Part shown: positions 13,301 to 63,984 of the stretch, piece by piece | How the letters are laid out: every line of letters starts with the position of its first letter | How positions within the stretch are numbered: the stretch's first letter is position 1 | NCBI GenBank assembly: GCA_000092065.1 | Contig: CP000587.1 | Reading direction: 5' to 3' (one strand) | Length of the DNA: 64,000 nt | Source: Ostreococcus lucimarinus | Lineage: Eukaryota | Position numbers and translations under genes: made by a program | Notes under the pieces: generated by a model | Database searches by the model: none | What the model saw: only the letters and a program-made list of their open reading frames with translations | Told to the model about the DNA's origin: nothing

Positions 13301-13664
13301 TTTGCGTTCAATTCGACCGCGACGGATTGTTCGCGACTTGCACGCGTCCAGAGTTTGTTTGCGTCAGACATGTACACCGAAAGTAGCATTTCTCTAGAAT
13401 CCTGATCATCGTCACGAGCGATGCGTTTTGCGTGCGAAGCGACGGAGTCCACCATGCCAGTGTACGCGCCCCAGTTGTTGTAGTTCTGGAATAAATGCGC
13501 GTGAAGTTCGTGTACAACATCGTTCCAGTATCGATCCAAGTAATCGGTTGAGTAACTCGATACATCTTCTTTTTGTGTGAGCAATTGCTCAAGCCAGACG
13601 GATAAACTGTCAACGCTGTTTGCGAGGTTTGACGGGACGTCGACTTCCTCATTCGTGAATGTAG
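7303..13664 (-). other. FKS/GT48 glucan synthase module 2. Coordinates are approximate.
   Basis: VRFHYGHPDV is encoded at about 9086-9115 (plus coordinates). The two catalytic cores are about 6.5 kb (about 2177 aa) apart, so each module is a complete FKS unit. Confidence 0.55.
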
Positions 13665-16600
13665 AGTCCTTCGCGCTCTTCTGGAAACCGAACATATCCG
13701 CGAGGTGTGAAGCAATAGGCTCGATCCTACGTTTGATTTCGGTGACTCTCTCGTTTTTGTTGGCCGTCATGTCACCCACTGATGTCAAATCTTCCTTCAT
13801 ATCCGGGATGGTGCTCGGCATCGGTCTAGCATAGCGAACAGGCGTCGATTTCAGGCCGAGGACCTTCCGGATGAAAACTCTGGACGACAGAAACCAAGTT
13901 TTTACCGAACGCGACGTCATCGCCCGATTGATTGTCGTCACCAAAGTGCGGCGGCGCATTTCGACGCCTAGCACAGATGCATATGCTCTGTTGAACAACA
14001 TCTTTGCGTGAACGTAAGAAATTGGCACGAGGGACAGCAGAGCGAGGCAAATATGCAGAGCCAATCCGATCACCTCATCCACATCTCGGAAGAAAAAGTC
14101 ACTGAAGATGCGCATCGTTCGAGCTATGTGCTTGAACATAGGCAGTGGAATATCGGAGATCAGTGAGGATATATGAACGACACAGTGCACCGTGCAGAAT
14201 GCCGCCAAGGCGAAAACGATTTTGTTCTGGCGCTGTTCAGTATCGAGCGTTTCGCTGAATAAACGTCCGCAGAGCTTCATGTGGAACACAACCAAAAAGA
14301 CTCGGACGCACATATTGTACATCAAGATGACGCTGCGTTTACCGACCTCGCTGGATGTGAGACCCAGTCTTTCCCCGATTGCGATTACGCGCTGCGGCCA
14401 GAAGAACGACGGCGACGTACTCATGAAATAGACTCCGGTGAGCAACAATCCGGCGATACCTGCAGTGACAACGACGACGCCTCGTACAGCCGGAATCCCG
14501 TCGAAATCGCTCACACGGACTGCCGCCGTACTACACACCATAAGGATGAGTGGGACAGGGAGAATGCGGAACGTGATGTACTCCATCTTGAGATGTCTCG
14601 GCATGGCGCGTAGTGACTTCATACGCTTGGCCTGCCACATCCACCAAGTGCCATCTTGATTGACTGCTCCTTGATTGCCAAGTTTAAAGGGATCAAGCCA
14701 GAATAGCCAAGAAGTGAAGTTTATCGCGGGGATACCCTCCTTGAAACTCTGTGGATGAAAGAACCAAGGTGAAAACATCCAAAGAATGACGGCGATCCAT
14801 ACATGCCAAGTTGTCGTCACAAAGACGTACCCTGCGCTGAACGTAGATAGTTCTGTGAGCAGAAGAGTCATCGCTAAAGTCGACATCGATGGAATGATGT
14901 GTGAAACCGCGTACTGCATGTAAAGGTCGGAAAAAGAGGCGTTCATACTCATACTGCGTTTGGTACCGCGGTACGACGCTTCGCCAGAGGCGATCGAAGC
15001 ATCGATAGCAGAGCCTCTCGATTTGGCGATGAACATGTGGTACACAAACGATCCCGTAACGATCCCGTGATAGGTATCTTTGACCATCTTTACTAAACCA
15101 CCGGTGATCCAACCGTGCAACATACCAGGCCAGGCCATCACCAAGCTCGCTTGAAGCATCCATTGCGATGGATACAGTGTTTCAAGGCCAATTTCTTGGT
15201 GGAAACCGACGTTATCGAAGGCATCGCCAGTTGTGTAATACGTTTCAATGCTAAACATTGCGATCACTGTCTTACACAAGACAAAGGCGGCCATGGATGT
15301 AAACAGCATGAATTCTGTGTAGAATAACCCAACCGACGACTGGAAAAAGCTCAAGCAGCGGAAAATGTCCATGCTCTTTGAAAGTCTATGAAAGTCACGC
15401 GAGATAAGCTGCATACCGTTCCCAGTAGCGATTTTTTTATTGAATTGGTTGTTACCATCGAATGAAACTTCTCGTCCCTTGCCACAGGTGGTAAAGTTCA
15501 CGTACTCGATTTTGCCACCCCGTTGCACGACATTCATACCTCCGTACACGTCCTCTGACAAGTGCAGTCTTCGAGAAGCCTTAGAGACTCCACCACTTGA
15601 GCGGATGAATGCACCATCCCATATGTCAGGGTGGCCGTAGTGCATGCGGACACGAAGAGGGTTCGTCATGAAACGCTGCAACAAAGTCCCAAAGACCGCC
15701 TCAGAAGTGGCCGCAAAACTCGACACTGACCCCTGACGCCCAGAAATCAGTTGTTCGGTAAAGCCGATGAGCACTATGTCTTCGTCGGATCCATACAACC
15801 TCAGAACGTTACGAAGTTTTAACCCTTCTGCGAGATGTGCATCTTGGTTCATATCAATCGTTTGCACATACATGCCACGCGACCAGACCAATCCCATGTT
15901 TTGGTTTTCGGGCTTGCCTTCGCCAACAATTGGATGCCCAGGAAGTTGAACACGATGCGTTCGCTTGAACTTTCCGTCTGCGCCGCGACTGAGCTTTGCA
16001 ATTGCGAAGTTATCATTGTCGCCACTCGGTTGTTCGACATAATTTACCGTGACATGCGGGAATTGTTCCACGAGCGCCTCCACTTCACCGTTCATCGTAT
16101 ATCCCGGTGAGTTGTAGACTTGGCAACACAGGACGTGCTCGAACTTTGCACGAACCAATGGTTCAATCTCATCTTCAGGGACGCCTTCCAGACGTGCCAA
16201 TAATCGTAGGGCATCGATGTAAGAGGCAAAGCCTCTCACCGTACGATATAAAGTTTGACCTTCGCCGCTCGCCCAGTTCATGGTTTCTTCACTCAGACGT
16301 TTTTCCTCATCGGTGAATGTGGACAAAGCAGTGATCTTGTCCAACATCGCGCGATCAAAAAAGTGCTCGTAGTTTGAGTCTTTCACCTTCACACCAGTGC
16401 GCTCGATCATGTTTTCCCACGAAGACGGTGCCATGCTGACCATGAAGCGAAATCCCGTGACGGATTCGCCATCGATTGTTGATGTCAACGTGTCCAACGA
16501 AGTGCGAATTTCTTCGGTGTAAACCGGAGTTAGCGTCGTCAGCATCGGCATCTGACGAACAGTCATTGGTTTCTTCATTGCAGGATCGCCGAGGCTTGAC

Positions 16601-19600
16601 ACGAAAAATCGAAAGATGTCTTTCGCTTCGTCCAAAGAAGGTTCGGCCGCGGGGTTCGCCGTAGAGAGCATCAGATCCATTTGTTTGATGACGTACGATC
16701 CAGCCTTGGAGGACGCCGCACTTCGAATTTTGGCTGATGACGAATCGAGAGCATTAAAATCCATGATTTGCTGAAGCTTCTCGCACGTTTTAACCAAGAG
16801 TACGTTCGTTTCTTTGTGCGTTGCGCGCTCATTCTCGCGGTCCTTTGCGATCTCAGTGCTGATGAGTTTGAGCAAATTTTCCATCTGCGAGCGAATTCGA
16901 CTGGTATCAAACGCACTTTCGTCATCTTCACGAACTCGCAACAGCTTCAATAGTCCCGCCGATTGCTCGCGCAGCGACCCGAGCCATTTTATCGCATGGG
17001 AATGCTCACTCAAGCTCAGCGACATGAGGTCAACGAGAGACTTGAGCAATTCTACAAACTGCACACGGTCTCTGGCGTCGACAACTCCGAGGACACAGGT
17101 AGCGATGAAAGCGAGCAAGTCAATCGATTGCGCAATCACGGATGACGAAAACGCAAACCGCATCTTTTCATTGCGCTGAACGCCAATTCCACTAAACAAA
17201 GAGCCACTGAGCATGATAGGGAAAACGACGTACCGAGAGCCGAAGAAGCTCTCGCTCGTGGGTCCATCCAGGATACGGAACAAAAGAAGATCGGTCTCTT
17301 CGTTACTCAAGAGGTCTCTTGAGCGCGTCGACTTCACGATCTCGTTCCATGCTTTCGCGAAAGAGAACCAGGCATCCGAAACGCTTTCTGAACACAATGC
17401 TGTTGAAGAGTCCGAAGGTGGTTCCGGCTTGGGAGAAGACGTCAAAACTTTTTCCGCAAATAAATCCACGTTTTGCGGCATATCAAGAACTGTGCGTGCC
17501 CACCCGCTGGCAATACCTGTGTTCTTGTAGCGCTTGTATGCGCTAGCGACGCCAAGCGTCGTGATGAAGTAGAAGAACGTGTTACCAAAGTACAGCAATA
17601 CACTCGGCATCCATCGCTCGAATAACATGAGCGCCTTGAATCCATATCGTCTCGCCAAACGAGTCATTTCGATTAGCTGTGGAGAGAGGAGCTCGTTATA
17701 GTCGTACGCATCACAGTCAGCCCCTGCGAAGTTATAATTCCAGCAGTACAGATCGAGTTCCAGAATCGCTTTCGTTGGTGCGATGAGGGGGTTGACCATC
17801 AAAATATAATCGAGGGTCAACTTCAACGTAAAGGTGACGACCCAGAAGATGATATACGACCGTCGGTCTTTGCTTGATATGGGATTGTTCACCTTCTCTG
17901 TGAAATATCTGTCCGTTTTGTCACCGGAAGTGAGTTGGTAGCCAGAGATATTGGCCAAAACCAGCACAGCGTAGGGGAAACCGACTGCAGCAAACGTCTT
18001 CACATTGATGAAGTCAGTGGCACAAGCCATCCCGAGTAGCAGAACTACTATAGCGAAAGCGGCGCGTCCGACTGATTCTACTCGACTATGGAACAACGCA
18101 ATTCGGTCGAAGAAAATGACTCTCGACTCGATGATCAGGTCAAATACGGCTGCCGTCAGCGCCGTCGTCGAGTACATTGCCGGTTCTGCAAATTTCACAA
18201 ATGCGTGCACAATCATAACGTGCATCATCAACGACAGGAGCGCGAAAATGCGATGGAAGTTGACATACATCGTCATCCAACCCAAATGCTCTCTGTAAGT
18301 TTTTCTGAAAACAACGCTCAAACTCTGATCTTTCTCCTTAGCGGCTCCCGCAGTGCGCACAAAATGCCTGAATTTAGCATACGAGCTTGTGCCCATCTCA
18401 GCGTCTATGTTCAGCATACGCTTCAACTTTGAGACATCAATAAATGTTTCATTCATATCATCGTAACCCATGCGAAGATGCAAAGGAGCAGCACTTTTCA
18501 TGTGCAATGCGAGGAAATTGTATAGCGGTCTCACAATTGAGGTGAGAAAATCATCCGCTTCAAAAGCCAAACCGGAGTCGGGTACAGCCGAACACATGGT
18601 GCCTCGGTTCACGACAGCCGCCGCCATGATGTGAAATACAAACATCATAAACTCTGGCATAAACCTCAAATTGGCAGACTCTTGGTAAATGAGCTCGAAC
18701 AGTACAAGCTGGCATAGCTTCGCATCAGTGCTTCCCTTCAACATCGAAGACGCCAGCGTCTCAGTTCCACGCGGAGAAAAATCTATGCCAGTGTAACTCA
18801 TGTATCGCTTATAACTCGCAAACGTTTTCTGATGAAGAGCCTGCGCGGCCCAGTCTGATTTGTTCGAGCTCGGCGCGTCTTGGAGTTGAGACGTGTTCCA
18901 AAGAAGCATCGCGCACTTATCGATGCAGCTTTCTCGTATGCTTGCGACGCCTTCGCTACCGTTTTGGAATCCAAATAAATCACCGAGACTTTGCGCGATG
19001 GGCGCAAGCCTAGTTTTCCACTGCTCAATATCACGCTCGATGGAGCTTGCTCCCGATGGCTCCGGGCCAAGACGAGTGAGAGAATCTTCTTCGAATTCGA
19101 CAGGTGGAGATTCTTTGCTGAGTTCACCGACGAGTTGCCGAGACGCTTTGGAAGGCGTACCCAACGCGCGTACAGCTCGTTTCTGGATATCCGCCGTCGC
19201 GCGATCGTCCGCAATAAACAGTCGAACGATCAAGAAATTCGATCGAGAAAGAGAGACTAATGCATCTCGCACGTATCGACGCGTTATACGCCAACGAATG
19301 GCGAGAGCAACGCCCAAGTACAAGATGATCGCTAGGTATACCACCGTCAAGAGTTCAACCTCAAGTTTTAAGGCATCGACGGATTCGCGGTCGGGGCAAC
19401 TCGTGTCCCCAGGTTGCTCAAATCGCTCTTTTTGATCTTCTATGTACGTCTCCAACTCTGTAAATATTGTCGGCGGCTCCGGACACGCTCTGTTATTTTT
19501 GCGATGAATCTGTCGCATGTGGTGACAGGTCAAAAAAGTGCTTTGCAATGCTGTCGAAACCGGGTTGATCAACCCCTTTGGATGCGTCAAGATTGCACTA

Positions 19601-54836: not shown

Positions 54837-56609
54837 ATGGCGAACGCGCTGATCGCGTTTACGCTCGCGAACGCGGCGTGTGAGCTGGTGACGCCGATAC
54901 GGTACGCGCGGACGATGACGCTGTGGAGCCGAGGACGCGGGGATTGCGGAGAGACGGCGAAGATTGGAGCGGTGTGCGGGTACCTGATTCAAATCGCGGC
55001 GACGTTTACGTGGTACGAACTCGCGGTGCTGGGAATCATCCCGGGCGGCGCGAGCGACGGTACGGTGGACTTTGAATTGCGATTGATACATCAAATGTTC
55101 ACGTACGTGACATTCGGAGCGGTGTTCGCTATTTGGCTGGACGACCTCGCCGTCGTCGGCGCGCCCGTTTCGTGGTGCTCGTCGCTGGCGAGATTGTACC
55201 AGTTCTTCTCGACGCGAATGATCGCGTGCATGATGATCATGGCGAGTCGAAAAACGCCAACGGCGTGGCATCCGTTCTGGACCGCGGCCGGTTACACGGC
55301 CAGCGCGGTAAAGGGCGCGGGAACGGACGTAATTCTTAAATATGCGTACTACTTTTGCCGAGCTGGGTTCAGCGTTGTGTCCATGGCGATAGCGCTGACG
55401 GGGGTATTTTACTGGAATCCAGTTCGCGCCTGGTTTATCCGCGTAGAAGATTCTCAATCGCGCGCGAGTCGCACTTCGAACCGCAAGGAGATGATGCGAA
55501 CCATCTTTTGGCACTGTGCGTTTGGTCTGATTTTCAGCGCAATTTGGATCACGGCGTCGAATTCAGGAATTCCTCGCATCGATGCCATCAAGGGGGCATC
55601 TAGATCTACCATGTCTACGCATTACTTCGAGCCTTGGATTCCGGGACACCAGATCATCCACGCGAAGAATCACGGGCAAACGATGATAGCGGTTGCATAC
55701 GCCACTTTTATCGCGTACTCATTGAACTATATGGACGACGGCGGTTTGTGGATCTCAAAAGTTCTCTCAATTCAACTGCCCGCCCAGATTTACAACTTTT
55801 TTGTTGTTATTTACATCATCGTCGCCCTTGGTGGTGGAACCATCTTTCATCCAACCTGGTACACGAATGGTTGGGCCCCAAGCTGGGCGACACATCGTAT
55901 GCTGGATTGGCTCTTCTTCGTTGGTACTGGTCATCTGACTATTTTCGGTGTTCCACTCATCACGTACGCGCTTCTCAAGCATCTCAGTATTCCCGAATTT
56001 AAGCCGTATGCGACTGCTTCCATGGGCTTCTTTACCAAGTGCATGCGTCATGGAATGGTATCAATTTTGTTTTCTGGGCTGTGGATGATGGCCGTCAGTA
56101 CGGGCGTGCCCATGCCAGATGCCAAACTCACAGCCATGTTTGGACTTCCCCCTCTACACAAACTCGACGTGCGAGAAACTATCAAGATGCATCACGTCGA
56201 TATCATCGTGAGCATAATTATTATGGCGAACGGTTACGCCGTGCTGGCTCTCGACCGCGTTGTTCAGCTGGATTACAAGCTGCATCAATTCATCACTGTC
56301 GTATGGAAGCACTCGATGACCAGTCGATGGGTGTACTTTTGGTGTGCGAAAATTCTCTTGCATAGCGGCGAGCGTTTTACTACACCGAACGTTATCGCCT
56401 CGCTCTTGCGCTTCCGATCGCAAGTTAAGTCTACCAGCAGTGACAACTGGTTTTTCGTTTTGATCGCCGTCATGGAACTGTACTCTTTCACCGCGATGAT
56501 GCTCTTATTTCTCTTCACACTCACCCGAATGGCTCGTGCCAGTGTGGCTTACTTGAGAAATAACGGCCAAGGTCAGGTAAACTGGACAACCGGCCTGAAG
56601 CAAGAATAG
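54837..56609 (+). CDS. Polytopic membrane protein of 590 aa and unknown family. It may be a paralogue of the N-terminal membrane module of the lipoxygenase fusion at 58138..63984.
   Basis: ATG at 54837 verified. There are at least 12 hydrophobic helices, rich in Trp/Tyr. It shares short colinear motifs with the fusion protein's N-terminal region: EPWIPGHQ vs SHSWIPALRQ, HPTWYTNGWAPSW vs LLYTNLWYQG...MPEW, and STGVPMPDAKL vs TSGIPHPVPLSD. GC drops along the gene. Confidence 0.5.
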   Translation: MANALIAFTLANAACELVTPIRYARTMTLWSRGRGDCGETAKIGAVCGYLIQIAATFTWYELAVLGIIPGGASDGTVDFELRLIHQMFTYVTFGAVFAIWLDDLAVVGAPVSWCSSLARLYQFFSTRMIACMMIMASRKTPTAWHPFWTAAGYTASAVKGAGTDVILKYAYYFCRAGFSVVSMAIALTGVFYWNPVRAWFIRVEDSQSRASRTSNRKEMMRTIFWHCAFGLIFSAIWITASNSGIPRIDAIKGASRSTMSTHYFEPWIPGHQIIHAKNHGQTMIAVAYATFIAYSLNYMDDGGLWISKVLSIQLPAQIYNFFVVIYIIVALGGGTIFHPTWYTNGWAPSWATHRMLDWLFFVGTGHLTIFGVPLITYALLKHLSIPEFKPYATASMGFFTKCMRHGMVSILFSGLWMMAVSTGVPMPDAKLTAMFGLPPLHKLDVRETIKMHHVDIIVSIIIMANGYAVLALDRVVQLDYKLHQFITVVWKHSMTSRWVYFWCAKILLHSGERFTTPNVIASLLRFRSQVKSTSSDNWFFVLIAVMELYSFTAMMLLFLFTLTRMARASVAYLRNNGQGQVNWTTGLKQE

Positions 56610-56806
56610 TCCGTGAGCAATGGACTTAATTAAAAACTTTCTGCGACTTACTACTCTTTACATCAACTGAAAACGGTCAAGAAGTGTTCGCACACCGGTT
56701 GCTATACAAAAGCCGTTTGTGCACTTTTGCCATAGCATTCTGGAACCTTGTGCGACTTCGAAAAGGATGCTTGATACAATACATATGAATATGCTATGAC
56801 TATTAA

Positions 56807-57859
56807 TTACGCTAATTTCGATGCTCGTGAAGACGAATGCGGCGCGCCATCGAGCGATTCATTGTCATGTAGTAGAACGCTGATGTATTCAAGCATCGCT
56901 TGCCCCGCCGTGTCATTCAGAATTTCCTCAAAGGAGAGTGATCCGCGATTCGAGATATCGATGCGCTCGAAAAGCTCTTTTATGTCTCGTGCGTCGACGC
57001 CCCACGTGAACAATTGCTCACGGAGCTCGCTCCCATCTAACGTGCCATTACCATCCTTATCCAGCACATCAAAAGCTGTCCGTAACGGCGTCTTACCGAT
57101 TCGCAAACGTACCAACGAATTCACTCTACCACAGATAGCTGCAAAATTGCGTTCTTTTCCGCTTTCCTCGGATCCGCACGCGTTGGAATACGCGGCAATG
57201 ATGACTATGGCAATGAGGGCACCCACGGGACCGTACACTGCTGGTATGACTAAAAACAGTGCAAGAGTTGCCCCTGTCGTGTACCGGTGCTCCTTAATAC
57301 CCGGAACATTCGTGAACGCAAATATAAACATTCTGGAATACACGAACCCCTGCGCGAGAACGAGCTGGTCGATGAAATTTTCCAATACGGCGCCGCTCGA
57401 GTCTGACGAAAGCGCGCCGGCTCCAATCAGCACTCGAAACGCTTTTTCGATGTGCGCGGTGTTTATAATGTGCAATGCAGGAGTTATAATAGACGGTGTC
57501 CCAAACGATGCGTCGATTTGAAGCATCGCCGTGAGCGCGATCACCAACACGCACGCCGCGCTCGCGCGCATCGTACCCCTCGCGCCGCCGCCGACCAGCA
57601 ACGCTCGCGCGCCCAACGTCAGCTCCATCGTTCCGAAGGCCACGTGCACCAACAGGCGCCTCGCTCGTCGACGATTCAGTCTAAATTTAGGATGCATGCG
57701 CTTCTTGCCCGCTCGAGCGTAGCCCAAGACGAGGAAAATCTCGAGCACGTACCCGATGACAATCACGGCAATCTTTTGCGTTCGCTGCTCGCTCGCCTCG
57801 CGCACGGTCCCACCGAACGCGTACGCACCGAGCGGGAGATCATACGTCCATGCGAACAT
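56807..57859 (-). CDS. Multi-pass membrane protein with a C-terminal EF-hand pair (putative Ca2+-binding).
   Basis: ATG verified (CAT at 57857-57859). About 6 TM helices are followed by ...AFDVLDKDGNGTLDGSELREQL... (canonical 12-residue EF loop DKDGNGTLDGSE) and ...LFERIDISNRGSLSFEEI (a second, weaker EF loop). Confidence 0.5.
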   Translation of the reverse strand: MFAWTYDLPLGAYAFGGTVREASEQRTQKIAVIVIGYVLEIFLVLGYARAGKKRMHPKFRLNRRRARRLLVHVAFGTMELTLGARALLVGGGARGTMRASAACVLVIALTAMLQIDASFGTPSIITPALHIINTAHIEKAFRVLIGAGALSSDSSGAVLENFIDQLVLAQGFVYSRMFIFAFTNVPGIKEHRYTTGATLALFLVIPAVYGPVGALIAIVIIAAYSNACGSEESGKERNFAAICGRVNSLVRLRIGKTPLRTAFDVLDKDGNGTLDGSELREQLFTWGVDARDIKELFERIDISNRGSLSFEEILNDTAGQAMLEYISVLLHDNESLDGAPHSSSRASKLA

Positions 57860-58137: not shown

Positions 58138-60115
58138 TTACACACCAATGTTGCTCGGCACGCGTTCTGGGTGCATGTAAGGATATGCCTTTACTCCAAG
58201 CTTTGCGTTGCGGTTTTCGATCTGGCGTCCCATGGCACGCAGCTCAGAACGGAGATCTTGGAGAGCGGCGATTTCAGCCGGCGTAATCATCATGTCAGTG
58301 ATGTAATGTCCGACAAAAACCTCTTCTTTTGAGAACTGTGAAAGCGTCCAGCCAGTCGCCATCGTCTGCGCCGCTTGACCGACGCTCGGCAGCGCGTCGA
58401 TAACATCTTTTTCCGTCACCGGAACCTTCTTCGTCGGCGCAGGCTTGCGCATGATGAGCGGACGATTTGGACAATAAGAGTAATAGTCCCACTGGCTGAA
58501 GTTGACTGCGGCGTGAGTAAAAGAGCACGTGTACATCACTGACGTGCAGATATCAACAAGTTGATCGATTGAATCGATACTACCCGGCACACCGTGCTGA
58601 CTTCTGTCCGTGCCTTGGTATCCATAGCCTTGCATCTCAAGAATCATGCTCTGTATGTATGGATCGGCGGCAACTTCCGCGTCAGACGTGTAGTGCAGCT
58701 TGAAGATGCTTTTAGCGAAACGACGAAGACAGGCCCATGCTCGCAACGAGTCGTCACGATGATGATAACCTCTCAAATCTCCCTCACTTAGCACGCCACG
58801 TTTTTTAAAGGAGGTCGGAACGTGCAAATCGTCAAGCTTAAATCTCTGGTACGCTTTGCTCATCAAGTCCATGTGACCTCCTTGGCCAACTGCTACGACG
58901 CGATCAGTAACTCCTCCCGGAGATATTAACAACGACCGCCCAAGGGTATTGATGGCAATCACGTAGATGAGATGAGGACGCAATACCCGGTACACAGGAT
59001 GGTTTCTTGGAAGAGTTCTTTCGACGCAGACGGACCACGGTTCCATGAGCAAGTGCGTGCCCAATAGGTGCGATATCATCTGATGTACGTTTCCGTCAGA
59101 GCACATTAAGTGCGCTTTTGCGAGGAGCCACTCGTACTCGCCATCTTTTGGAGTCCATACCGGCGCGCTAGCACCAGACTGAAAGTGCTGGATGCAGATT
59201 GGGCGAAGTGCCGTGCTCTTGTCCGCAAAGAAGAGAGCCATGGAGTTCTCGACGCAGTAGCCTTGACCGCGCTTGATATCCTCAAGGATTTCATAGTCAA
59301 CCATGAATATGTGCCCTGCTGCCAACTCGCTTTCGAGCGTTTTGCCTGGAGGTAAAACGCCTCTTACATGTTCTTCGGTGACGCGAAACTTGGCTGGAAT
59401 TTGAGACACTTTGCGCACTTGATTTGGATGTGTTCCATTCATAAATTGACGACCAAACTCCTCGTCCGAACGCCAGTCTCTGATGATTGCAACAGGGGGG
59501 AGAGAAGCGTAAAGGCGATAGTAGTCATCCAGCGATTTAATTTCTTCGTCCTTGATCATTTCGGCGACGCCTTTATTTTCGAATCCCACAAAAGTATCGA
59601 CAAAGAAGTCCTTGTATTTTGTTGAGCTGAATTGCTCCGTGATGGGGAGCTTTGAGTGGTCGTCATATGTGCTATGATTTGGCAAGTACGAACCATTCGA
59701 CCAATCGAATTCCTTCTTCATGAACGAAAGGTACTGTTCAGTCGCATCGGCGATCAGTTGGCGACAAGCCAAGCTTGTTGTCGGCGTAATGGAGCACGGA
59801 AGAACGAATCGGACACCTTGGCCAATGTATCGCCACACATTCAACGTGAAACTCGTTGGAATTTGCGAAGTGAACGTCACATCTATCCGACCGCAATTCC
59901 AAGAGCTTTTCGAGGTTTGAGAAATAATGGCGTAAGCTGGCTCTCCAATATCGTCGGCGTGCACGAAGTGCGTGCTGATTGCTCCAGTTGCGAAGGAGTC
60001 ACCGAGATCATGCAGGACGATTTTGGGCGTAGCGCCACGCGTTCCGACGAATTGTAGCACCACATCACCGTCTATTCCAGACCCAGCGATTGAATGCGTC
60101 GTAACTTTGATCGTA
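58138..60115 (-). other. PLAT domain (about 59700..60115) plus lipoxygenase catalytic domain (58138..about 59700). Coordinates are approximate.
   Basis: KYTIKVTTHSIAGSGIDG is encoded at plus about 60066-60120. AHLMCSDGNVHQMISHLLGTHLLME is encoded at plus about 59045-59115. Confidence 0.6.
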
Positions 60116-63100
60116 TACTTTTTTGACGCTTCAGGAGCGTAAACGTCTTTTCGTCCGCGGGTGAAAACGCGGCGAATTTTATATGACGTCTCGTAAACCA
60201 CCGCACGCGTCCAGTTCAAGGAGTTATAGTCTTGCGAGTTGATTGGTCGAGTGAGAGGCATGCAAGCCGGAGTACGATTCATACCGAACGATAAATTCTC
60301 AACCGAGTGTTGCGGGAGTGCGGCGTGAAGTCTCACGACTCCAACGTCGAGAAATTCAGTCCCCCAAGCTTTGTTGGGGTTGAAAATTTCCGCGGTATCC
60401 GAAGAAGTGGCCTCATATAACTGGATTTGAAGTCGGTACCTCACGGCTTCGCCCGCCACCTTGGTGCAGAACTCGTTTCGCAGATAGTCAGGCAAACGTT
60501 TCTCGTTCGGTAGTCGACGATATTTCATCATATGTGTCGTTGCGATCAGGTTCTGGTCAGCCTCGTCAGGCAAGAACGGCTCTTGACCGACGTCCGTCCC
60601 AGGGCCAGCTCCGTATGGAACGAGTCTGAACTTGCAGTATCGCTTTTTGCCATCCAAAGCATGGAATTCGCGACAAGTCTGCGAGTAATAATGTAAATCG
60701 CAGTACGAGTCGGGTGCCCTTCGCACCCCGCCGATACCAGCCTTAATGCCTGTGGGATACTTCATTCCCCATGCCTTGTAAGCGGAGTCGTTAAACGTCG
60801 CCATTTGAAATACGAACGGAAGAAACGAATCCAAGTTGAAAAATCCAGCGAATTCACCAGTGTTCAGGTGCAGATCGAATGGACTTTCGTCGACGGCATT
60901 TGAGAACTTCAGCGCACAACCTCGAATCTCAAGAGATGCGTCGTCATACATTTCCGAGTCGGCGAGCTTCACGCCGACGGCGTTCGAGTGCCTCAAGATG
61001 ATTGGCATCGTCTTGCCCTTCGTAAAGAAAGCATTTTTGGGCACCTTACTGTTCTCGATGACGGTGAATTGCCCGATCGCACCAACACCGACTGGATGGG
61101 TCGGGCGCCTTTTCTGCATCAGAGTGCCAAACACGAACATGAAAGCAATCTTCAACTGCATCACCAGCAACCCAAACGCATTGGGAGGTGGCATTGGAAT
61201 GGGAAACTCGGAATTCGAGGCTGCGTCGAACATTTCATCTCCGAAAGCGGCTTTATAACACTTGACCCAGTGATTTTGCCACTGTGACACCACCGCGACC
61301 AATGGCCTTGGAGAGGTGGATGGCGACTTCGACAAAATACGACCGAAACTCGACTTTCGCATCGTACTCATCTCATCCGGAACCACAATGCCCCGCTTAA
61401 ATAGTGCAGCAATGAACCTTACCTTGACGGTACTGAGCATCACCACTCGGTTTTTAACCGAATGGATCAACTTTTGAGTGGCTTTGGCGAATTGGAACCA
61501 GACATAAGTCCAACCCATGGTGTGGAGGAACAGCGAAAGCGTCAAGGGTGTACTGGTGTAACCGCAAAGCCACGAGAACCGCGAAACAAACACCAGCATG
61601 TGCATGAAATACACTCCACGGACGACTCTCATCACAGGTTTCAAGAATCGACCAAACGACGAGACGCCGCTTGTAAGGACTGAATGTGTCAGCGCGAGAG
61701 TCAAGAGACAGAAGTATCCAACGTGAAAGGAATCCTCGATGATACTGTCAGCCGATTCAAACGCGGAGAGAGTCATGAGCCGTCGACGAAGGAGGTCAAC
61801 CATCGAGTTCGAAAGAGCGCCCGCGCCAATAATACGCACTAACCTGATGAGAATATGCCAGATGTGAGATAATGCACCCAGTGTGCACATCATCTTCGTC
61901 GTCTTCTGGATTGCATGAAAACGCGACCTCGCCTCCTTCGACGTTTCGTGCGTATTCACGAGAGCAATGTGCTGCAAGTACACCCGAAGCCAAGCCAGGC
62001 ACAGTAAGATGATTTGAACATCAGTCTCGACGCTTTCTAGGTATGCATTTTCGAAGCGCTTTGCGTCACAACTGCGCAACGGGCATCCTAAGAGTATGTG
62101 AACGAGGGTTCGTGAAACTTTATCACTCTTGCCCGTCAGCGCCTTGTAATAGAGTGAGATAATCACAAACCACAAAGTGATAGTGCTCTGCGCAAAAGTA
62201 TTCATGGAGAGTGCGACTCCTTTTGGAAAAGAAGGGTTCATGAGATTGTGGGCAGCGAAAGATAACAGTAGAGGACTGATTGCGGACATTCTTGGAACTG
62301 GCTTCGGTGCGATCAAGTACGTGTCTGAAAGCGGCACAGGATGCGGTATACCACTCGTTAGCAGAGCGATCGGAAGCATAGCGCAGAGGACAAGGACCCC
62401 ATTTATCCATGCACACTTCTCTACCTGCCGTTGCAAAGCGAAATGCTTCAGCACAAGCATGCGCCAGCGTCCACGCAAATTCGTGAAACCCGTTCGCTGG
62501 CCGCTCGAATCCGGATTTCTGGAAAGGTGAACGGCGCCTCGTACGCACGCGTAGATTGAGAGCATCATGATGAGCCAGATAGTGAAATCAACCCCCACCC
62601 AATCACTGGGAGCGTGATGTAACTTTCGCGTCCACGGATTGGACATAGCACGAGCCACCAGAAAATGATCGCAGAGAGTGTAGGAAACAGACATTGCCAT
62701 CACGCCGTAGATCAATCTGGCGCTTCTTAGCGTTCGTTGGTCAGAAAATGCGCTCTTTCGAATCACGGCGGTGCTTATACCCACGAACGCGTGCAACACG
62801 ATGGAGTATTGCATCATTGAAATGCGAGCCAACTCGGCGTCGCCGCGCAGCAGCGCGTGTTCCTTGCTGAACCGTAAGCGCAGGACGGGAAAAGAAAGAG
62901 TTGACAAGCGGCGTGCGATGGTGCGGAGGATTGGAAAGTTGACCTTCAAAAGTGGTACCTGAAGGCGACCCCACTCTGGCATCATCACACCGGTGGCGAT
63001 GCCCTGGTACCACAAATTTGTGTACAGGAGACTCCCCAGTATGAACAAATGCGCCATGGATGCCAGGGAGACACCAAACATGTGGAATCCTTTGCGAGTC

Positions 63101-63984
63101 GGCCCGACGAAAATGGGACCGTTAAACGCGTGGTGAAAGAGAATGTTCATCAGGGCGGCCGTCATGATTGTGAAGAAGGGCATGTTGATAGAGAACCTGA
63201 ACCAGTCCGGCAGTGATCCGTGCGTTATGATGATCAACGCGAGAAGGCTCTTCGACGCTATCATGACGAACAGTGCGCCGAATGAACCTTGCCGCAGTGC
63301 AGGAATCCACGAATGAGATAGAATGCCAGTGACGAAGAGACCGGCGGAACACATACCGATGGTGTTTGGATTGCGCATGTTCGCCAAAGCGGAGAAGTGT
63401 CGACCGAACTCGAGTACGAAGATCGCCCCGCCGATGTAACAGATGCTAAATAGCACAGCCAGACGTTCGTGCATGATAAATAGCGTCGACGCTGATCGAG
63501 GTTTGGGAATCTTGAAATACCTGACCCGTTTCTCCGGCGGCACGTCCACCACGCCCAAGCGGCTCACGCGAATCAAACAAAATTTACCCAACGCGCCCAG
63601 ACCGTCCACGGACACCATGAGCGCTCCGACCGCGCAGTTCGGCATCTTCATCATCAACCGTAATCCATAAAGCGTCACGAACGCCAGCTGCGTTTCAGTC
63701 GCGTAATGCGTGTACGCGTCGCTCCCCGTGCACACGTACGACCACCCAATCGCGTGCACGCACGAGAACACGTACACCCACAGCGCCAGGCACGTCCCAT
63801 CGAACGAATTGAACACCAAATCGTTCGCGATCGCCCCGACGACCGCCGGCCGCGTTCGATCGCGCGCCACCGCCGCGTACGTCACGTACGCCGTCGACAG
63901 CACGTAATTGATTCCCTGCAACGCGTGGAAACGCCCGACCGACCATCCGGGCCTTAGCGCGTCGCTCGCCGCGTCGCTCGACAT
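58138..63984 (-). CDS. Fusion protein of 1948 aa. It combines an N-terminal polytopic membrane module, a catalase-related (allene-oxide-synthase-like) hemoprotein domain, a PLAT/LH2 domain and a lipoxygenase.
   Basis: This is one uninterrupted ORF with a verified ATG (CAT at 63982-63984). The catalase-like core HPVGVGAIGQFTVIENSKVPKNAFFTKGKTMPIILRHSNAVG...LEIRGCALKF parallels catalase [41 protein letters not shown]...FAVKF. The PLAT domain reads YTIKVTTHSIAGSGIDGDVVLQFVGTRG...NCGRIDVT. The LOX iron-ligand region reads HQMISHLLGTHLLMEPWSVCVERTLPRNHPVYRVLRPHLIYVIAINTLGRSLLISPGGVTDRV (compare HQLxSHWLRTHxxxEPF...HPIYKLLxPH...IN.LAR..LI..GG), and the C-terminus ends ...PSNIGV. The N-terminal 900 aa or so are Trp-rich multi-TM. 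Confidence 0.75.
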   Translation of the reverse strand: MSSDAASDALRPGWSVGRFHALQGINYVLSTAYVTYAAVARDRTRPAVVGAIANDLVFNSFDGTCLALWVYVFSCVHAIGWSYVCTGSDAYTHYATETQLAFVTLYGLRLMMKMPNCAVGALMVSVDGLGALGKFCLIRVSRLGVVDVPPEKRVRYFKIPKPRSASTLFIMHERLAVLFSICYIGGAIFVLEFGRHFSALANMRNPNTIGMCSAGLFVTGILSHSWIPALRQGSFGALFVMIASKSLLALIIITHGSLPDWFRFSINMPFFTIMTAALMNILFHHAFNGPIFVGPTRKGFHMFGVSLASMAHLFILGSLLYTNLWYQGIATGVMMPEWGRLQVPLLKVNFPILRTIARRLSTLSFPVLRLRFSKEHALLRGDAELARISMMQYSIVLHAFVGISTAVIRKSAFSDQRTLRSARLIYGVMAMSVSYTLCDHFLVARAMSNPWTRKLHHAPSDWVGVDFTIWLIMMLSIYACVRGAVHLSRNPDSSGQRTGFTNLRGRWRMLVLKHFALQRQVEKCAWINGVLVLCAMLPIALLTSGIPHPVPLSDTYLIAPKPVPRMSAISPLLLSFAAHNLMNPSFPKGVALSMNTFAQSTITLWFVIISLYYKALTGKSDKVSRTLVHILLGCPLRSCDAKRFENAYLESVETDVQIILLCLAWLRVYLQHIALVNTHETSKEARSRFHAIQKTTKMMCTLGALSHIWHILIRLVRIIGAGALSNSMVDLLRRRLMTLSAFESADSIIEDSFHVGYFCLLTLALTHSVLTSGVSSFGRFLKPVMRVVRGVYFMHMLVFVSRFSWLCGYTSTPLTLSLFLHTMGWTYVWFQFAKATQKLIHSVKNRVVMLSTVKVRFIAALFKRGIVVPDEMSTMRKSSFGRILSKSPSTSPRPLVAVVSQWQNHWVKCYKAAFGDEMFDAASNSEFPIPMPPPNAFGLLVMQLKIAFMFVFGTLMQKRRPTHPVGVGAIGQFTVIENSKVPKNAFFTKGKTMPIILRHSNAVGVKLADSEMYDDASLEIRGCALKFSNAVDESPFDLHLNTGEFAGFFNLDSFLPFVFQMATFNDSAYKAWGMKYPTGIKAGIGGVRRAPDSYCDLHYYSQTCREFHALDGKKRYCKFRLVPYGAGPGTDVGQEPFLPDEADQNLIATTHMMKYRRLPNEKRLPDYLRNEFCTKVAGEAVRYRLQIQLYEATSSDTAEIFNPNKAWGTEFLDVGVVRLHAALPQHSVENLSFGMNRTPACMPLTRPINSQDYNSLNWTRAVVYETSYKIRRVFTRGRKDVYAPEASKKYTIKVTTHSIAGSGIDGDVVLQFVGTRGATPKIVLHDLGDSFATGAISTHFVHADDIGEPAYAIISQTSKSSWNCGRIDVTFTSQIPTSFTLNVWRYIGQGVRFVLPCSITPTTSLACRQLIADATEQYLSFMKKEFDWSNGSYLPNHSTYDDHSKLPITEQFSSTKYKDFFVDTFVGFENKGVAEMIKDEEIKSLDDYYRLYASLPPVAIIRDWRSDEEFGRQFMNGTHPNQVRKVSQIPAKFRVTEEHVRGVLPPGKTLESELAAGHIFMVDYEILEDIKRGQGYCVENSMALFFADKSTALRPICIQHFQSGASAPVWTPKDGEYEWLLAKAHLMCSDGNVHQMISHLLGTHLLMEPWSVCVERTLPRNHPVYRVLRPHLIYVIAINTLGRSLLISPGGVTDRVVAVGQGGHMDLMSKAYQRFKLDDLHVPTSFKKRGVLSEGDLRGYHHRDDSLRAWACLRRFAKSIFKLHYTSDAEVAADPYIQSMILEMQGYGYQGTDRSQHGVPGSIDSIDQLVDICTSVMYTCSFTHAAVNFSQWDYYSYCPNRPLIMRKPAPTKKVPVTEKDVIDALPSVGQAAQTMATGWTLSQFSKEEVFVGHYITDMMITPAEIAALQDLRSELRAMGRQIENRNAKLGVKAYPYMHPERVPSNIGV
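60120..61200 (-). other. Catalase-related (cAOS-like) heme domain. Coordinates are approximate.
   Basis: RRPTHPVGVGAIGQFTVIENSKVPKNA is encoded at plus coordinates about 61065-61145 (reverse complement). Confidence 0.55.
61280..63984 (-). other. N-terminal polytopic membrane module of the fusion. Coordinates are approximate.
   Basis: It contains at least 15 hydrophobic helices. Only the first 300 nt or so (63700-63984) are GC-rich. The rest matches the low-GC body. Confidence 0.45.

What the first reader, a model, noticed from the sequence alone, without database searches (positions are those of the whole stretch)
58138..63984. Membrane-anchored catalase-related (AOS-like) hemoprotein plus PLAT plus lipoxygenase fusion, a candidate oxylipin megasynthase
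This 1948-aa ORF carries, in order: a Trp-rich polytopic module of about 900 aa; a domain with the catalase proximal-heme core pattern (HPVGVGAIGQFTV...FFTKGKTMPIILRHSNAVG...GCALKF); a PLAT/LH2 beta-sandwich; and a lipoxygenase with the iron-ligand His cluster HQMISHLLGTH...HPVYRVLRPH. The catalase-related-AOS to LOX order is the architecture known from coral (Plexaura) AOS-LOX and a few cyanobacteria. In those proteins one polypeptide turns a fatty acid into a hydroperoxide and then into an allene oxide. The extra N-terminal integral-membrane module is not part of those known fusions. It would place the whole pathway in a membrane, possibly for direct access to substrate lipids. The combination is unexpected in a GC-rich picoalgal-type genome.
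Basis: partly seen in the sequence, partly recalled or inferred. Interest (0 to 1): 0.85.

Follow-up and report, generated by a model that had tools for sequence, protein, structure and literature searches.

The report
Membrane-anchored coral-type hemoprotein–lipoxygenase in Ostreococcus
A tiny marine green alga (Ostreococcus lucimarinus) encodes, as one 1948-residue protein, the two-enzyme fatty-acid-oxidising fusion known from corals, joined to a large membrane-spanning module with no detectable relatives; this points to a membrane-embedded lipid-signal pathway that the public gene model cuts in half.

Summary
Window 58138-63984 (minus strand) is one 1948-codon ORF in Ostreococcus lucimarinus CCE9901.

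- **Coral match.** Residues 902-1945 align end to end with the Plexaura homomalla allene oxide synthase-lipoxygenase fusion (PDB 3dy5, E 6e-161).
- **Catalytic residues.** All heme residues (R960, T962, H963, R998, N1041, Y1264, R1271) and all iron ligands (H1634, H1639, H1824, N1828, C-terminal V1948) are present.
- **N-terminal module.** The first ~850 residues have about 17 hydrophobic helices. They match no Pfam family and no relative outside this algal clade among 1.84 billion proteins. Both structure predictions failed.
- **One gene.** The module is coding (dN/dS 0.25-0.34). It stays in the same ORF as the enzyme in six Ostreococcus-type and two Bathycoccus-like lineages. A third lineage has a frame break inside the module, probably a 92-nt intron.
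- **Public model.** XP_001418901 (1031 aa) omits the module.
- **Neighbours.** A membrane EF-hand protein sits beside the gene in two of these lineages, and an orphan 590-aa membrane protein in all three.
- **AOS versus lyase.** This cannot be called from sequence. Positions 65 and 150 carry the coral lyase residues.

Verdict: a new variant of a known kind, apparently undescribed, of moderate to high interest.

The parts
58138..63984 (-). Complete ORF, 1948 aa plus stop: membrane module, linker, catalase-related hemoprotein, PLAT, lipoxygenase
   Evidence: start codon. The exact product occurs in 8 metagenomic contigs (P0101). Five full-length orthologs share 63-69% identity.
61435..63984 (-). 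N-terminal polytopic membrane module (residues 1-850), about 17-18 hydrophobic helices, orphan
   Evidence: Hydropathy. No Pfam hit at E<=10 in 5 diverse members. phmmer against 1.84e9 representatives finds only orthologs and fragments. dN/dS 0.25-0.34. AF2 pLDDT 39-41. Foldseek finds no hit.
61282..61434 (-). Variable interdomain linker (residues 851-901)
   Evidence: 15-25% identity with in-frame indels among six orthologs, and no stop codon in any.
60130..61281 (-). Catalase-related heme domain of the coral cAOS/cHPL type (residues 902-1285)
   Evidence: Aligns to P. homomalla cAOS 1u5u residues 3-361, E 2e-51, about 36% identity. 80-83% identical among orthologs.
61096..61107 (-). R960-P961-T962-H963: heme Arg (R64), position 65 (Pro as in coral lyase), Thr66, distal His67
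   Evidence: Alignment. Residue roles from PMC5617202. Coordinates checked. R960, T962 and H963 are invariant across all the lineages compared (A3); P961 is invariant among the Ostreococcus-type sequences (A1) and replaced by Ser in the Bathycoccus-like ones.
60193..60207 (-). R1260-A-V-V-Y1264: proximal heme ligand Tyr (Y353) and its Arg partner (R349)
   Evidence: Invariant.
60823..60825 (-). F1054, equivalent to position 150 (Leu in coral AOS, Phe in coral lyase)
   Evidence: Alignment. Specificity role from PMC5617202. Invariant in all lineages.
59785..60129 (-). PLAT/LH2 beta-sandwich (residues 1286-1400)
   Evidence: Pfam PF01477 E 2e-4, 22.5 bits against cut-off 23. Aligned to the PLAT of coral 8R-LOX 3fg1 from residue 9. 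PF01477 is precomputed for orthologs P0005 and P0116.
58141..59784 (-). Lipoxygenase catalytic domain (residues 1401-1948)
   Evidence: Pfam PF00305 E 1.3e-67. Best PDB matches are coral 8R-LOX, coral 11R-LOX and human 5-LOX (329-357 bits), against 123-142 bits for plant enzymes.
59068..59085 (-). H1634-Q-M-I-S-H1639: first two iron ligands
   Evidence: H1634 and H1639 are invariant.
58936..58950 (-). N-T-L-G1682-R: Gly at the Ala/Gly site that goes with R-stereospecific oxygenation
   Evidence: Aligned to 'DTIGR' of coral 8R-LOX. The rule itself comes from my own knowledge of the lipoxygenase literature, not from a test here.
58501..58515 (-). H1824-A-A-V-N1828: third His and Asn iron ligands
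   Evidence: Ligand set as listed in PMC5793058.
58141..58155 (-). C-terminus S-N-I-G-V1948: the terminal carboxylate is the fifth iron ligand; Val replaces the usual Ile
   Evidence: All six Ostreococcus-type sequences end in SNIGV. The distant relative P0116 ends in SIAI.
56807..57859 (-). Neighbouring gene: 350-aa membrane protein with a C-terminal EF-hand pair, linked to the fusion gene in Ostreococcus-type and Bathycoccus-like loci
   Evidence: Pfam EF-hand_7 E 6.5e-10. Calmodulin-like over residues 258-314, with a hydrophobic N-terminal two thirds. Homologs lie next to the fusion gene in L001, L005 and L013.
54837..56609 (+). Neighbouring gene: 590-aa orphan polytopic membrane protein, linked to the fusion gene in all three lineages
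   Evidence: No Pfam hit. 69% identical homolog in L001; 24% identity (E 5e-22) in L002, sitting head to head with the fusion gene; homologs also in L005 and L013.

Best explanation
**What it is.** This is one gene of Ostreococcus lucimarinus. It encodes a protein of about 215 kDa that is an integral membrane protein.

**Anatomy.** An N-terminal module of about 17 membrane helices is specific to this algal group. It holds a complete coral-type two-enzyme unit at the membrane surface.

**Proposed mechanism.**
- The C-terminal lipoxygenase (non-heme iron, preceded by a PLAT domain) adds O2 to a polyunsaturated fatty acid to give a hydroperoxide. The Gly at the stereo-control site predicts R configuration.
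- The hydroperoxide passes to the catalase-related heme domain in the same polypeptide. That domain splits the O-O bond homolytically.
- It then converts the epoxy-allylic intermediate either into an allene oxide (AOS chemistry) or into chain-cleaved aldehydes (lyase chemistry).
- I commit to this two-step hydroperoxide pathway. I treat the second-step product as undecided, leaning slightly away from a pure AOS.
- The membrane module most likely serves as more than an anchor. A role in substrate access, to free or esterified membrane acyl chains, is my preferred guess.

**Shown:** the single ORF, the domain identities and order, all catalytic residues, purifying selection on every part, and conservation of the fused architecture and of two membrane-protein neighbours across lineages.

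**Inferred:** enzymatic activities, substrate, product, membrane location, and any role of the module beyond anchoring.
For: **Domain identity.**
- Residues 902-1945 align with residues 3-1063 of the 1066-residue coral AOS-LOX fusion 3dy5 (E 6.4e-161).
- Identity is about 36% in the heme domain and 35% in the lipoxygenase.
- Present: R960, T962, H963, R998, N1041, R1260, Y1264 and R1271; also H1634, H1639, H1824, N1828 and the C-terminal carboxylate (roles from PMC5617202 and PMC5793058).

**One gene.**
- Five orthologs of 1918-1961 aa cover 99-100% of the query.
- Linker indels are all in frame.
- Two Bathycoccus-like types have single ORFs of 1974-1976 aa. Their N-terminal modules are 25% identical to the window's (E 1e-44 to 1e-46), and their enzyme part is 63% identical.
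- In the most distant lineage (L002), the 1182-aa enzyme ORF still carries the last hydrophobic helices of the module. A 743-aa ORF homologous to residues 18-253 abuts it. A 92-nt GT..AG interval with a pyrimidine tract would join the two in frame.

**Selection.** dN/dS is 0.25-0.34 for the module and 0.08-0.10 for the enzyme part in three pairs.

**Start codon.** Settled by L003.

**Context.**
- An EF-hand membrane protein is linked to the gene in two lineages, and a 590-aa membrane protein in all three.
- In the Bathycoccus-like locus the other neighbour is a fusion of a sterol-sensing membrane domain, a patatin phospholipase and an EF-hand.
- In O. mediterraneus, oxidised galactolipids accumulate and only one lipoxygenase gene was found. 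That gene was recognised by its PLAT domain alone (bioRxiv 10.64898/2026.02.10.705097).
Against: - No transcript or protein data were available, so an internal start cannot be excluded. The public model XP_001418901 begins at M918.
- No activity is shown.
- Pfam Catalase and PLAT scores are just under their cut-offs.
- Position 65 is Pro and position 150 is Phe, as in the coral lyase rather than the coral AOS. Positions 176-177 (Ala-Gly) match neither enzyme.
- The C-terminal residue is Val, not the usual Ile.
- Ostreococcus galactolipids are rich in C16-C18 n-3 acyl chains rather than arachidonate (and my own knowledge). The coral substrate therefore cannot be assumed.
- The fold and function of the module remain unknown.
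- The L002 lineage has a real frame break that is reproducible in five assemblies. The intron reading of it is untested.
Confidence: 0.75

Rival explanations
1. The heme domain is a hydroperoxide lyase, or another hydroperoxide-rearranging enzyme such as an epoxyalcohol or LTA-type epoxide synthase. It would not be an allene oxide synthase, so the protein would make aldehydes and oxo-acids or epoxides instead of an allene oxide. This rival disputes only the second-step product. It agrees with the architecture and with the first step of the best explanation, so the two confidences overlap rather than add up.
For: - F1054 and P961 match coral cHPL (F150, P65) rather than cAOS (L150, A65).
- In coral cHPL, F150L and YS176-177NL shift products toward AOS.
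- Cyanobacterial catalase-LOX fusions make epoxides rather than allene oxides.
- A 13-carbon oxidised acyl chain on MGDG in O. mediterraneus implies chain cleavage of a hydroperoxide somewhere in the cell.
Against: - The reverse mutation L150F in coral cAOS did not change its products, so Phe150 alone does not make a lyase.
- Positions 176-177 are Ala-Gly, unlike either coral enzyme.
- At about 36% identity to the coral enzymes, these determinants may not transfer.
- The 13-carbon product would need cleavage on the methyl side of C13, which is not the regiochemistry reported for coral cHPL (my inference).
Confidence: 0.4
2. The N-terminal module and the enzyme are made as separate proteins from one ORF, by an internal promoter or start as the public 1031-aa model implies. 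Alternatively the module is removed after translation. Either way the active enzyme would be soluble, like the coral one.
For: - The NCBI/UniProt model XP_001418901 / A4S026 starts at M918.
- The linker is poorly conserved.
- The coral enzymes work as soluble proteins.
- The L002 lineage has two abutting ORFs.
Against: - M918 lies inside the region homologous to coral cAOS, which starts at W902, so that model clips conserved residues.
- No stop codon or frame shift separates module and enzyme in eight sequence lineages, despite many linker indels.
- The L002 break lies inside the module, about 120 residues before the heme domain. Even there the enzyme ORF carries hydrophobic helices.
Confidence: 0.12
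3. The gene is a recent horizontal acquisition from a cnidarian, a bacterium or a virus. It would sit in a foreign low-GC island, and the N-terminal part would be captured host or junk sequence of no function.
For: - The gene and its two neighbours have GC 0.50-0.55 and GC3 0.56-0.65, against 0.59-0.71 and mostly 0.64-0.83 (one exception at 0.56) for the other genes in the window except the glucan synthase.
- The best solved relatives are animal, not plant, lipoxygenases.
Against: - The same architecture and neighbours occur in Ostreococcus-type, Bathycoccus-like and a third GC-rich lineage, so the gene predates their split.
- In each lineage its GC sits below the local background, which looks like a gene property.
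- The unrelated 4820-aa glucan synthase in the window shows the same low GC3 of 0.59.
- The scan of viral contigs found no homolog; its search patterns came from the N-terminal module only.
- The module is under purifying selection.
- An ancient transfer is not excluded.
Confidence: 0.08

Closest known systems
[quoted passage not shown]
   Same: - Same domain order: heme domain, PLAT, lipoxygenase in one chain.
- End-to-end alignment, E 6e-161.
- Same heme residues (R64, T66, H67, R102, N137, Y353, R360) and same iron ligands.
- Gly at the R/S site.
   Different: - About 900 extra N-terminal residues forming a polytopic membrane module; the coral enzymes are soluble.
- Only about 36% identity.
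- Pro65 and Phe150 in place of Ala and Leu.
- C-terminal Val in place of Ile.
- A hydrophobic N-terminal arm (residues 938-956) where the coral protein is Lys-rich.
- A green-alga host whose main polyunsaturated fatty acids are not arachidonate.
Coral catalase-related hydroperoxide lyase-lipoxygenase fusion (Capnella imbricata cHPL-LOX)
   Same: Same architecture. It shares Pro65 and Phe150 with the algal protein.
   Different: - Positions 176-177 are Tyr-Ser in cHPL and Ala-Gly here.
- cHPL-LOX has no membrane module.
- I could not align the C. imbricata sequence directly, so the comparison goes through the P. homomalla alignment and the paper's residue list.
Cyanobacterial catalase-lipoxygenase fusions (Anabaena PCC 7120, Acaryochloris marina)
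   Same: A small catalase-related hemoprotein fused upstream of a lipoxygenase, with R-specific oxygenation of C18 fatty acids.
   Different: - From my own knowledge, the Anabaena lipoxygenase part is a mini-LOX without a PLAT domain; the cited review says this only of cyanobacterial mini-LOXs in general.
- Their products are epoxides or diols rather than a coral-type allene oxide.
- No membrane module has been reported for them.
Human 5-lipoxygenase with its membrane partner FLAP
   Same: - 5-LOX is among the best structural relatives of the catalytic domain (329 bits).
- The idea that an integral membrane protein hands membrane-derived fatty acid to a PLAT-bearing lipoxygenase is the closest functional analogy for the module. 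This comes from my own knowledge and is an analogy only.
   Different: - FLAP is a separate small MAPEG-family trimer, not a fused module of about 17 helices.
- I did not test the module against FLAP; the Pfam scans of the module returned no credible family at all.
- 5-LOX has no downstream heme domain.
Plant 13-lipoxygenase plus CYP74 allene oxide synthase or hydroperoxide lyase
   Same: The same two-step logic (hydroperoxide, then allene oxide or aldehydes). In Arabidopsis the two enzymes form a membrane-associated complex (PMC6627107 abstract).
   Different: - In plants they are separate proteins.
- The second enzyme is a P450, unrelated in fold to catalase.
- Plant lipoxygenases are much more distant from this one (123-142 bits).

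Membership tests
Catalase-related hemoprotein-lipoxygenase fusion, coral cAOS/cHPL-LOX type | A catalase-related heme domain directly upstream of PLAT and lipoxygenase in one polypeptide, collinear with the coral fusion | tested here: met
   Residues 902-1945 align with 3dy5 residues 3-1063 as a single stretch, E 6.4e-161.
Catalase-related hemoprotein-lipoxygenase fusion, coral cAOS/cHPL-LOX type | Heme environment: proximal Tyr353 with Arg349; distal His67 with Thr66 (Val in true catalases) and Asn137; heme-binding Arg64, Arg102, Arg360 | tested here: met
   Y1264, R1260, H963, T962, N1041, R960, R998 and R1271 are all present. All are invariant in six orthologs and in P0116. Roles come from PMC5617202; R349 and the Thr-for-Val point come from my own knowledge.
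Catalase-related hemoprotein-lipoxygenase fusion, coral cAOS/cHPL-LOX type | Residues that set AOS versus lyase chemistry: 150 (Leu/Phe) and 176-177 (Asn-Leu/Tyr-Ser) | tested here: inconclusive
   F1054 is lyase-like. A1082-G1083 match neither enzyme. P961 is lyase-like but had no effect on products in the coral mutant.
Catalase-related hemoprotein-lipoxygenase fusion, coral cAOS/cHPL-LOX type | Converts a fatty acid to a hydroperoxide and then to an allene oxide or aldehydes | not testable with these tools
   This needs recombinant enzyme and product analysis.
Catalase-related hemoprotein-lipoxygenase fusion, coral cAOS/cHPL-LOX type | Soluble protein of about 1066 aa with no membrane-spanning segments | tested here: not met
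   About 850 extra N-terminal residues with about 17-18 hydrophobic helices. Coral 8-LOX activities are found in the soluble fraction. This feature is what makes it a variant rather than an ordinary member.
Lipoxygenase (Pfam PF00305) | Profile match above the gathering score, plus the iron ligands His, His, His, Asn and the C-terminal carboxylate | tested here: met
   229.3 bits against cut-off 23.6. H1634, H1639, H1824, N1828 and the C-terminal V1948 are present. Val replaces the usual Ile.
PLAT/LH2 domain (Pfam PF01477) | Profile match above the gathering score | tested here: inconclusive
   22.5 bits against cut-off 23. The region still aligns with the PLAT domain of coral 8R-LOX, and PF01477 is on record for orthologs P0005 and P0116. 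The calcium-binding residues were not examined.
True catalase (Pfam PF00199) | Profile match above the gathering score over the ~380-residue core | tested here: not met
   20.6 bits against cut-off 25, covering only residues 960-1038. Thr rather than Val sits next to the distal His. It is a catalase-related protein, not a catalase.
CYP74 allene oxide synthase / hydroperoxide lyase (P450) | A P450 domain | tested here: not met
   No P450 family appears among the Pfam hits at E<=1.
Any described membrane-protein family, for the N-terminal module | Significant sequence or fold match to a known family | tested here: not met
   - Pfam at E<=10 on five diverse members gave only three isolated, non-recurrent weak hits.
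- phmmer against 1.84e9 proteins found only clade members.
- PDB sequence search found nothing in residues 1-900.
- Foldseek on a low-confidence model gave best E 0.08 and TM below 0.2.

The most novel reading that the evidence does not exclude
The ~850-residue module is a lipid-handling machine rather than a passive anchor. It would extract or present membrane acyl chains, possibly still esterified in galactolipids, to the fused lipoxygenase, or export the products. Together with the linked EF-hand membrane protein and the 590-aa membrane protein it would form a calcium-gated, membrane-embedded oxylipin unit conserved across Mamiellales. Such a unit would be a fused counterpart of the 5-LOX/FLAP arrangement and the source of the oxidised galactolipids tied to virus susceptibility in Ostreococcus.
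Probability: 0.2. Interest if true: 0.8.

Novelty: new variant of a known kind. Interest (0 to 1): 0.62.

Why it matters
- **Wider distribution.** Coral AOS-LOX is the textbook case of a catalase fold recruited for lipid-mediator synthesis. It has been treated as a cnidarian speciality with distant cyanobacterial cousins. A collinear homolog in some of the smallest free-living eukaryotes widens that distribution and raises the question of how old the fusion is.
- **Substrate access.** The added integral-membrane module, kept for as long as these algal lineages have been separate, suggests a lipoxygenase pathway built into a membrane. How lipoxygenases get at membrane substrates is an open point in the field.
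- **A practical correction.** The public gene model is cut in half, and recent Ostreococcus work lists a single lipoxygenase and calls the oxylipin pathway incomplete. This gene supplies the missing second enzyme.
- **A testable candidate.** It is a concrete candidate for the oxidised galactolipids associated with virus susceptibility, testable in genetically tractable O. tauri.

Tried and rejected
**N-terminal module.**
1. Two AlphaFold2 runs used 6- and 7-sequence alignments. They gave mean pLDDT 38.6 and 40.9 and pTM 0.29 and 0.40, too poor to interpret.
2. Foldseek of the better model against PDB gave nothing below E 0.08, with TM below 0.2. The afdb50 library was not available.
3. A profile search with the module alignment in the search for homologous proteins returned nothing, not even the known orthologs. 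The two earlier searches with that tool returned only 6 and 3 hits and missed coral proteins. I treat its negatives as uninformative.
4. Pfam at E<=10 on five divergent module sequences gave only noise.

**Hypotheses I dropped or could not settle.**
5. That the 590-aa neighbour is a paralog of the module. A short shared motif scored BLAST E 0.007, but hhalign probability was only 14.5%. Not supported.
6. A scan of viral contigs for a viral copy of the gene found none, though its search patterns came from the N-terminal module only.
7. The intron in L002. Four further contigs from independent assemblies were 99.7% identical, with no variation in the 92-nt interval. The frame break is real, but splicing is untested.
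8. That the patatin-sterol-sensing-EF-hand gene is a conserved neighbour. It is adjacent only in the Bathycoccus-like type A loci. It is absent from the window, L001 and L002.
9. That the 13-carbon oxidised acyl chain reported in O. mediterraneus is direct evidence for lyase activity of this enzyme. The regiochemistry does not match the coral lyase.

**Limits on identification.**
10. Exact-sequence look-ups named only the window's organism. The Bathycoccus-like and Micromonas-like labels rest on GC content and relatedness alone.

**Literature.**
11. Seven full-text searches found no paper describing this fusion in green algae.

Full report
**Observation.** The window carries an ATG-to-stop ORF of 1948 codons at 58138-63984 on the minus strand. 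The window ends 16 nt upstream of the ATG. L003, a metagenomic contig whose product is identical across the whole ORF, extends 476 nt further. It has in-frame stops 36 codons upstream and no intervening ATG, so M1 is the first possible start. Exact-sequence look-ups of neighbouring ORFs return Ostreococcus lucimarinus CCE9901 proteins: XP_001418887, XP_001418900 and XP_001418669, all on a 783-kb record. This identifies the organism. The surrounding genes are ordinary eukaryotic ones, including a TH1/NELF protein, cathepsin, a DEAD-box helicase and an ABC1 kinase.

**Domain identities.**
- Pfam gives Lipoxygenase at residues 1503-1929 (E 1.3e-67).
- PLAT at 1290-1382 scores 22.5 bits against a cut-off of 23. 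Catalase at 960-1038 scores 20.6 bits against 25.
- The decisive result is the search of solved structures. Residues 902-1945 align as one stretch with residues 3-1063 of the 1066-residue Plexaura homomalla allene oxide synthase-lipoxygenase fusion (3dy5, E 6.4e-161).
- The heme domain alone matches 1u5u (E 2e-51), and PLAT plus lipoxygenase match coral 8R-LOX (357 bits).
- Next come coral 11R-LOX and human 5-LOX at 329 bits. Cyanobacterial and bacterial enzymes score about 133-184 bits and plant enzymes 123-142 bits.
- Counted from that alignment, identity to the coral protein is about 36% in the heme domain, 18% in PLAT and 35% in the lipoxygenase.

**Catalytic residues.** I used the residue roles given for coral cAOS in PMC5617202 and the alignment.

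| Coral cAOS residue | Role | Residue here |
|---|---|---|
| R64, R102, R360 | heme-binding Arg | R960, R998, R1271 |
| T66, H67, N137 | distal side | T962, H963, N1041 |
| Y353 (with R349) | proximal ligand | Y1264 (with R1260) |

The lipoxygenase iron ligands are H1634 and H1639 (HQMISH), H1824 and N1828 (HAAVN), and the carboxylate of the C-terminal V1948. All are invariant in the orthologs. The site aligned with the coral 'DTIGR' motif reads 'NTLGR'. From my own knowledge, a Gly there goes with R-specific oxygenation.

**AOS or lyase.** In the coral Capnella, two near-identical fusions differ in the second reaction. Mutagenesis showed that position 150 and positions 176-177 steer the outcome. 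Position 150 is Leu in AOS and Phe in lyase. Positions 176-177 are Asn-Leu in AOS and Tyr-Ser in lyase. Position 65 (Ala in AOS, Pro in lyase) did not change products. The algal protein has Phe at 150 (F1054), Pro at 65 (P961) and Ala-Gly at the 176-177 equivalents. Because cAOS L150F stayed an AOS, Phe alone proves nothing. I conclude that the family assignment is firm but the product (allene oxide, aldehydes or another rearrangement) cannot be read from the sequence.

**The N-terminal module.**
- Residues 1-850 are hydrophobic. A single-sequence scan gives about 10 strong segments. Hydropathy averaged over nine family members gives about 17-18 candidate membrane helices, plus one more at 938-956 inside the N-terminal arm of the heme domain, where the coral protein is Lys-rich.
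- Trp content is 2.0%, only slightly raised.
- Pfam shows nothing for the module, even at E<=10 for five divergent members.
- phmmer of residues 1-900 against 1.84 billion representative proteins found five hits: one full-length ortholog and four short proteins of 131-301 aa. Those I could place belong to the same algal lineages.
- Two AlphaFold2 runs gave all-helical but unreliable models (pLDDT 39-41), and Foldseek against the PDB found nothing. The module is an orphan.

**Is it one gene?**
- Five metagenomic proteins of 1918-1961 aa match at 63-69% identity over 99-100% of the query.
- Region by region, identity to the window is 46-57% in the module, 15-25% in the linker (with several indels, all in frame), 80-83% in the heme domain, 61-71% in PLAT and 81-84% in the lipoxygenase.
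- A scan of metagenome contigs found a lower-GC lineage (0.41-0.50, Bathycoccus-like by inference) in two types that are 76% identical to each other. Each has a single ORF of 1974-1976 aa. Its enzyme part is 63% identical to the window's and its module 25% identical (E 1e-44 to 1e-46).
- A still more distant relative is P0116 (44% identity in the enzyme part, on contig L002, GC-rich background). It is called as a 1182-aa protein, but its first ~70 residues are hydrophobic helices.
- It is abutted by a 743-aa ORF homologous to residues 18-253 of the window's module (E 1e-10).
- The two frames overlap by 4 nt. The interval 7910-8001 begins GTGACA, ends in a pyrimidine tract plus CAG, and would join them in frame.
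- The break recurs in five independent assemblies, so it is not an assembly error, but the copies are too alike to test splicing.
- The break lies inside the module rather than at the domain boundary, which argues for an intron rather than two genes.
- dN/dS is 0.25-0.34 for the module and 0.08-0.10 for the enzyme part in three pairs. The module is a constrained coding sequence that evolves about three times faster than the enzyme.
- The public model (XP_001418901 / A4S026, 1031 aa) starts at M918, which lies inside the region homologous to coral cAOS. I regard it as truncated.

**Neighbourhood.**
- Downstream on the same strand lies a 350-aa protein with a hydrophobic N-terminal two thirds and a calmodulin-like EF-hand pair.
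- Next to that lies a 590-aa polytopic protein with no Pfam match.
- The 590-aa protein has a homolog near the fusion gene in all three lineages, despite rearranged order and orientation. These are L001 (69% identity), L005 and L013, and L002 (24% identity, E 5e-22, head to head with the fusion gene). The EF-hand protein has homologs in L001, L005 and L013, but no match was found in L002.
- In Bathycoccus-like type A, the other flank holds a 1355-aa protein. It combines an NPC1/Patched sterol-sensing membrane domain, a patatin phospholipase and an EF-hand. That gene is not near the fusion gene in the other loci.
- These linkages suggest a calcium-controlled, membrane-located lipid pathway, but this is inference.
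- A test of whether the 590-aa protein is a paralog of the module was negative (hhalign probability 14.5%).

**Base composition.**
- The fusion gene and its two neighbours have GC 0.50-0.55 and GC3 0.56-0.65. The other genes in the window, apart from the glucan synthase below, have GC 0.59-0.71 and GC3 mostly 0.64-0.83, with one exception at 0.56.
- The same relative dip is visible in L002 and L013.
- The unrelated 4820-aa glucan synthase in the window shows it too (GC3 0.59).
- The scan of viral contigs found no copy; its search patterns came from the N-terminal module only.
- I therefore read the low GC as a property of these genes, not as evidence of recent transfer. An ancient transfer between marine lineages remains possible and needs a phylogeny I could not build.

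**Mechanism proposed.**
- The module fixes the enzyme in a membrane.
- The PLAT-lipoxygenase part oxygenates a polyunsaturated acyl chain to an R-hydroperoxide.
- The heme domain, in the same chain, cleaves the O-O bond. It converts the intermediate to an allene oxide or to cleavage products.
- The size of the module and its conserved polar residues (for example R153, E173 and Q232, invariant across all lineages) make a role in substrate access or product export plausible. The role of FLAP for 5-LOX is the nearest analogy.
- The likely substrates are the C16-C18 n-3 chains of Ostreococcus galactolipids, or DHA, rather than arachidonate. This is inferred and my own knowledge.

**What is known.**
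- Full-text searches found no paper that links Ostreococcus, Micromonas or Bathycoccus with a catalase-related lipoxygenase fusion, and none describing such a fusion with a membrane module.
- A survey of algal lipoxygenases lists O. lucimarinus among the green algae compared and says that green algae other than Volvox carteri have at most one LOX.
- A 2026 preprint on O. mediterraneus reports oxidised galactolipids. It found a single lipoxygenase gene through its PLAT domain and calls the oxylipin pathway incomplete.
- The enzyme part is therefore a new member of the coral-type family in a new phylum. The fused membrane module makes the whole a new variant.

**Verdict.** Three caveats remain: 'AOS' is not established, the module's function is unknown, and single-transcript status rests on comparative evidence alone. 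Confidence in the stated explanation is 0.75 and interest is 0.62.

Noticed in passing
window 7303-21765 (-): A single 4820-aa ORF encodes an FKS1-type 1,3-beta-glucan synthase (Pfam Glucan_synthase E 5.5e-270, with about 2800 residues ahead of the first FKS1 domain hit). It forms the other low-GC block of the window (GC 0.51, GC3 0.59).
   Followed up: partly
window 58138-61233 (-), i.e. residues 918-1948: The public gene model XP_001418901.1 / UniProt A4S026 (1031 aa, 'predicted protein' / 'Lipoxygenase domain-containing protein') starts at an internal Met. It omits the whole membrane module and the first 16 residues homologous to coral cAOS.
   Followed up: yes
L013 13542-17609 (-): In the Bathycoccus-like lineage, the gene convergent with the fusion gene encodes a 1355-aa protein. 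It combines an NPC1/Patched sterol-sensing membrane domain, a patatin-like phospholipase and an EF-hand. This would be a membrane-embedded, calcium-sensing lipase beside a membrane-embedded lipoxygenase. It is not adjacent in the other lineages.
   Followed up: partly
L002 7910-8004 (same junction in L030-L033): A reproducible frame break sits inside the membrane module of the most distant relative. Two abutting ORFs of 743 and 1182 aa overlap by 4 nt. A candidate 92-nt GT..AG intron would join them. The clustering database puts both ORFs in one 90% cluster, which I cannot explain.
   Followed up: partly
window 54837-56609 (+) and 56807-57859 (-): Two further membrane proteins share the low GC3 of the fusion gene: an orphan 590-aa polytopic protein and a protein with several predicted membrane helices and an EF-hand pair. 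The 590-aa protein stays linked to the fusion gene in three lineages and the EF-hand protein in two, despite rearrangement. This is unusual gene clustering for a eukaryote.
   Followed up: partly
window residues 938-956 (about 61117-61173, -): The N-terminal arm of the heme domain is strongly hydrophobic (GLLVMQLKIAFMFVFGTLM), where the coral protein has a Lys-rich segment. It could be a further membrane-interacting helix.
   Followed up: no
L001 12720-13874 (-): In one Ostreococcus-type relative, the gene downstream of the fusion gene encodes a 2OG-Fe(II) oxygenase with a ShK-like domain. No counterpart was seen near the gene in the window.
   Followed up: no
window 56796-57521 (+): A 241-aa ORF lies antisense to the EF-hand gene. 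It gives tblastn matches in related loci only because it mirrors the conserved gene on the other strand, so it is probably spurious.
   Followed up: partly
P0117 (JGI metagenome protein, 1341 aa): A protein 29% identical over the whole heme-PLAT-lipoxygenase query carries PDZ domains at its N-terminus. Other lineages may therefore have added different N-terminal modules to this fusion.
   Followed up: no
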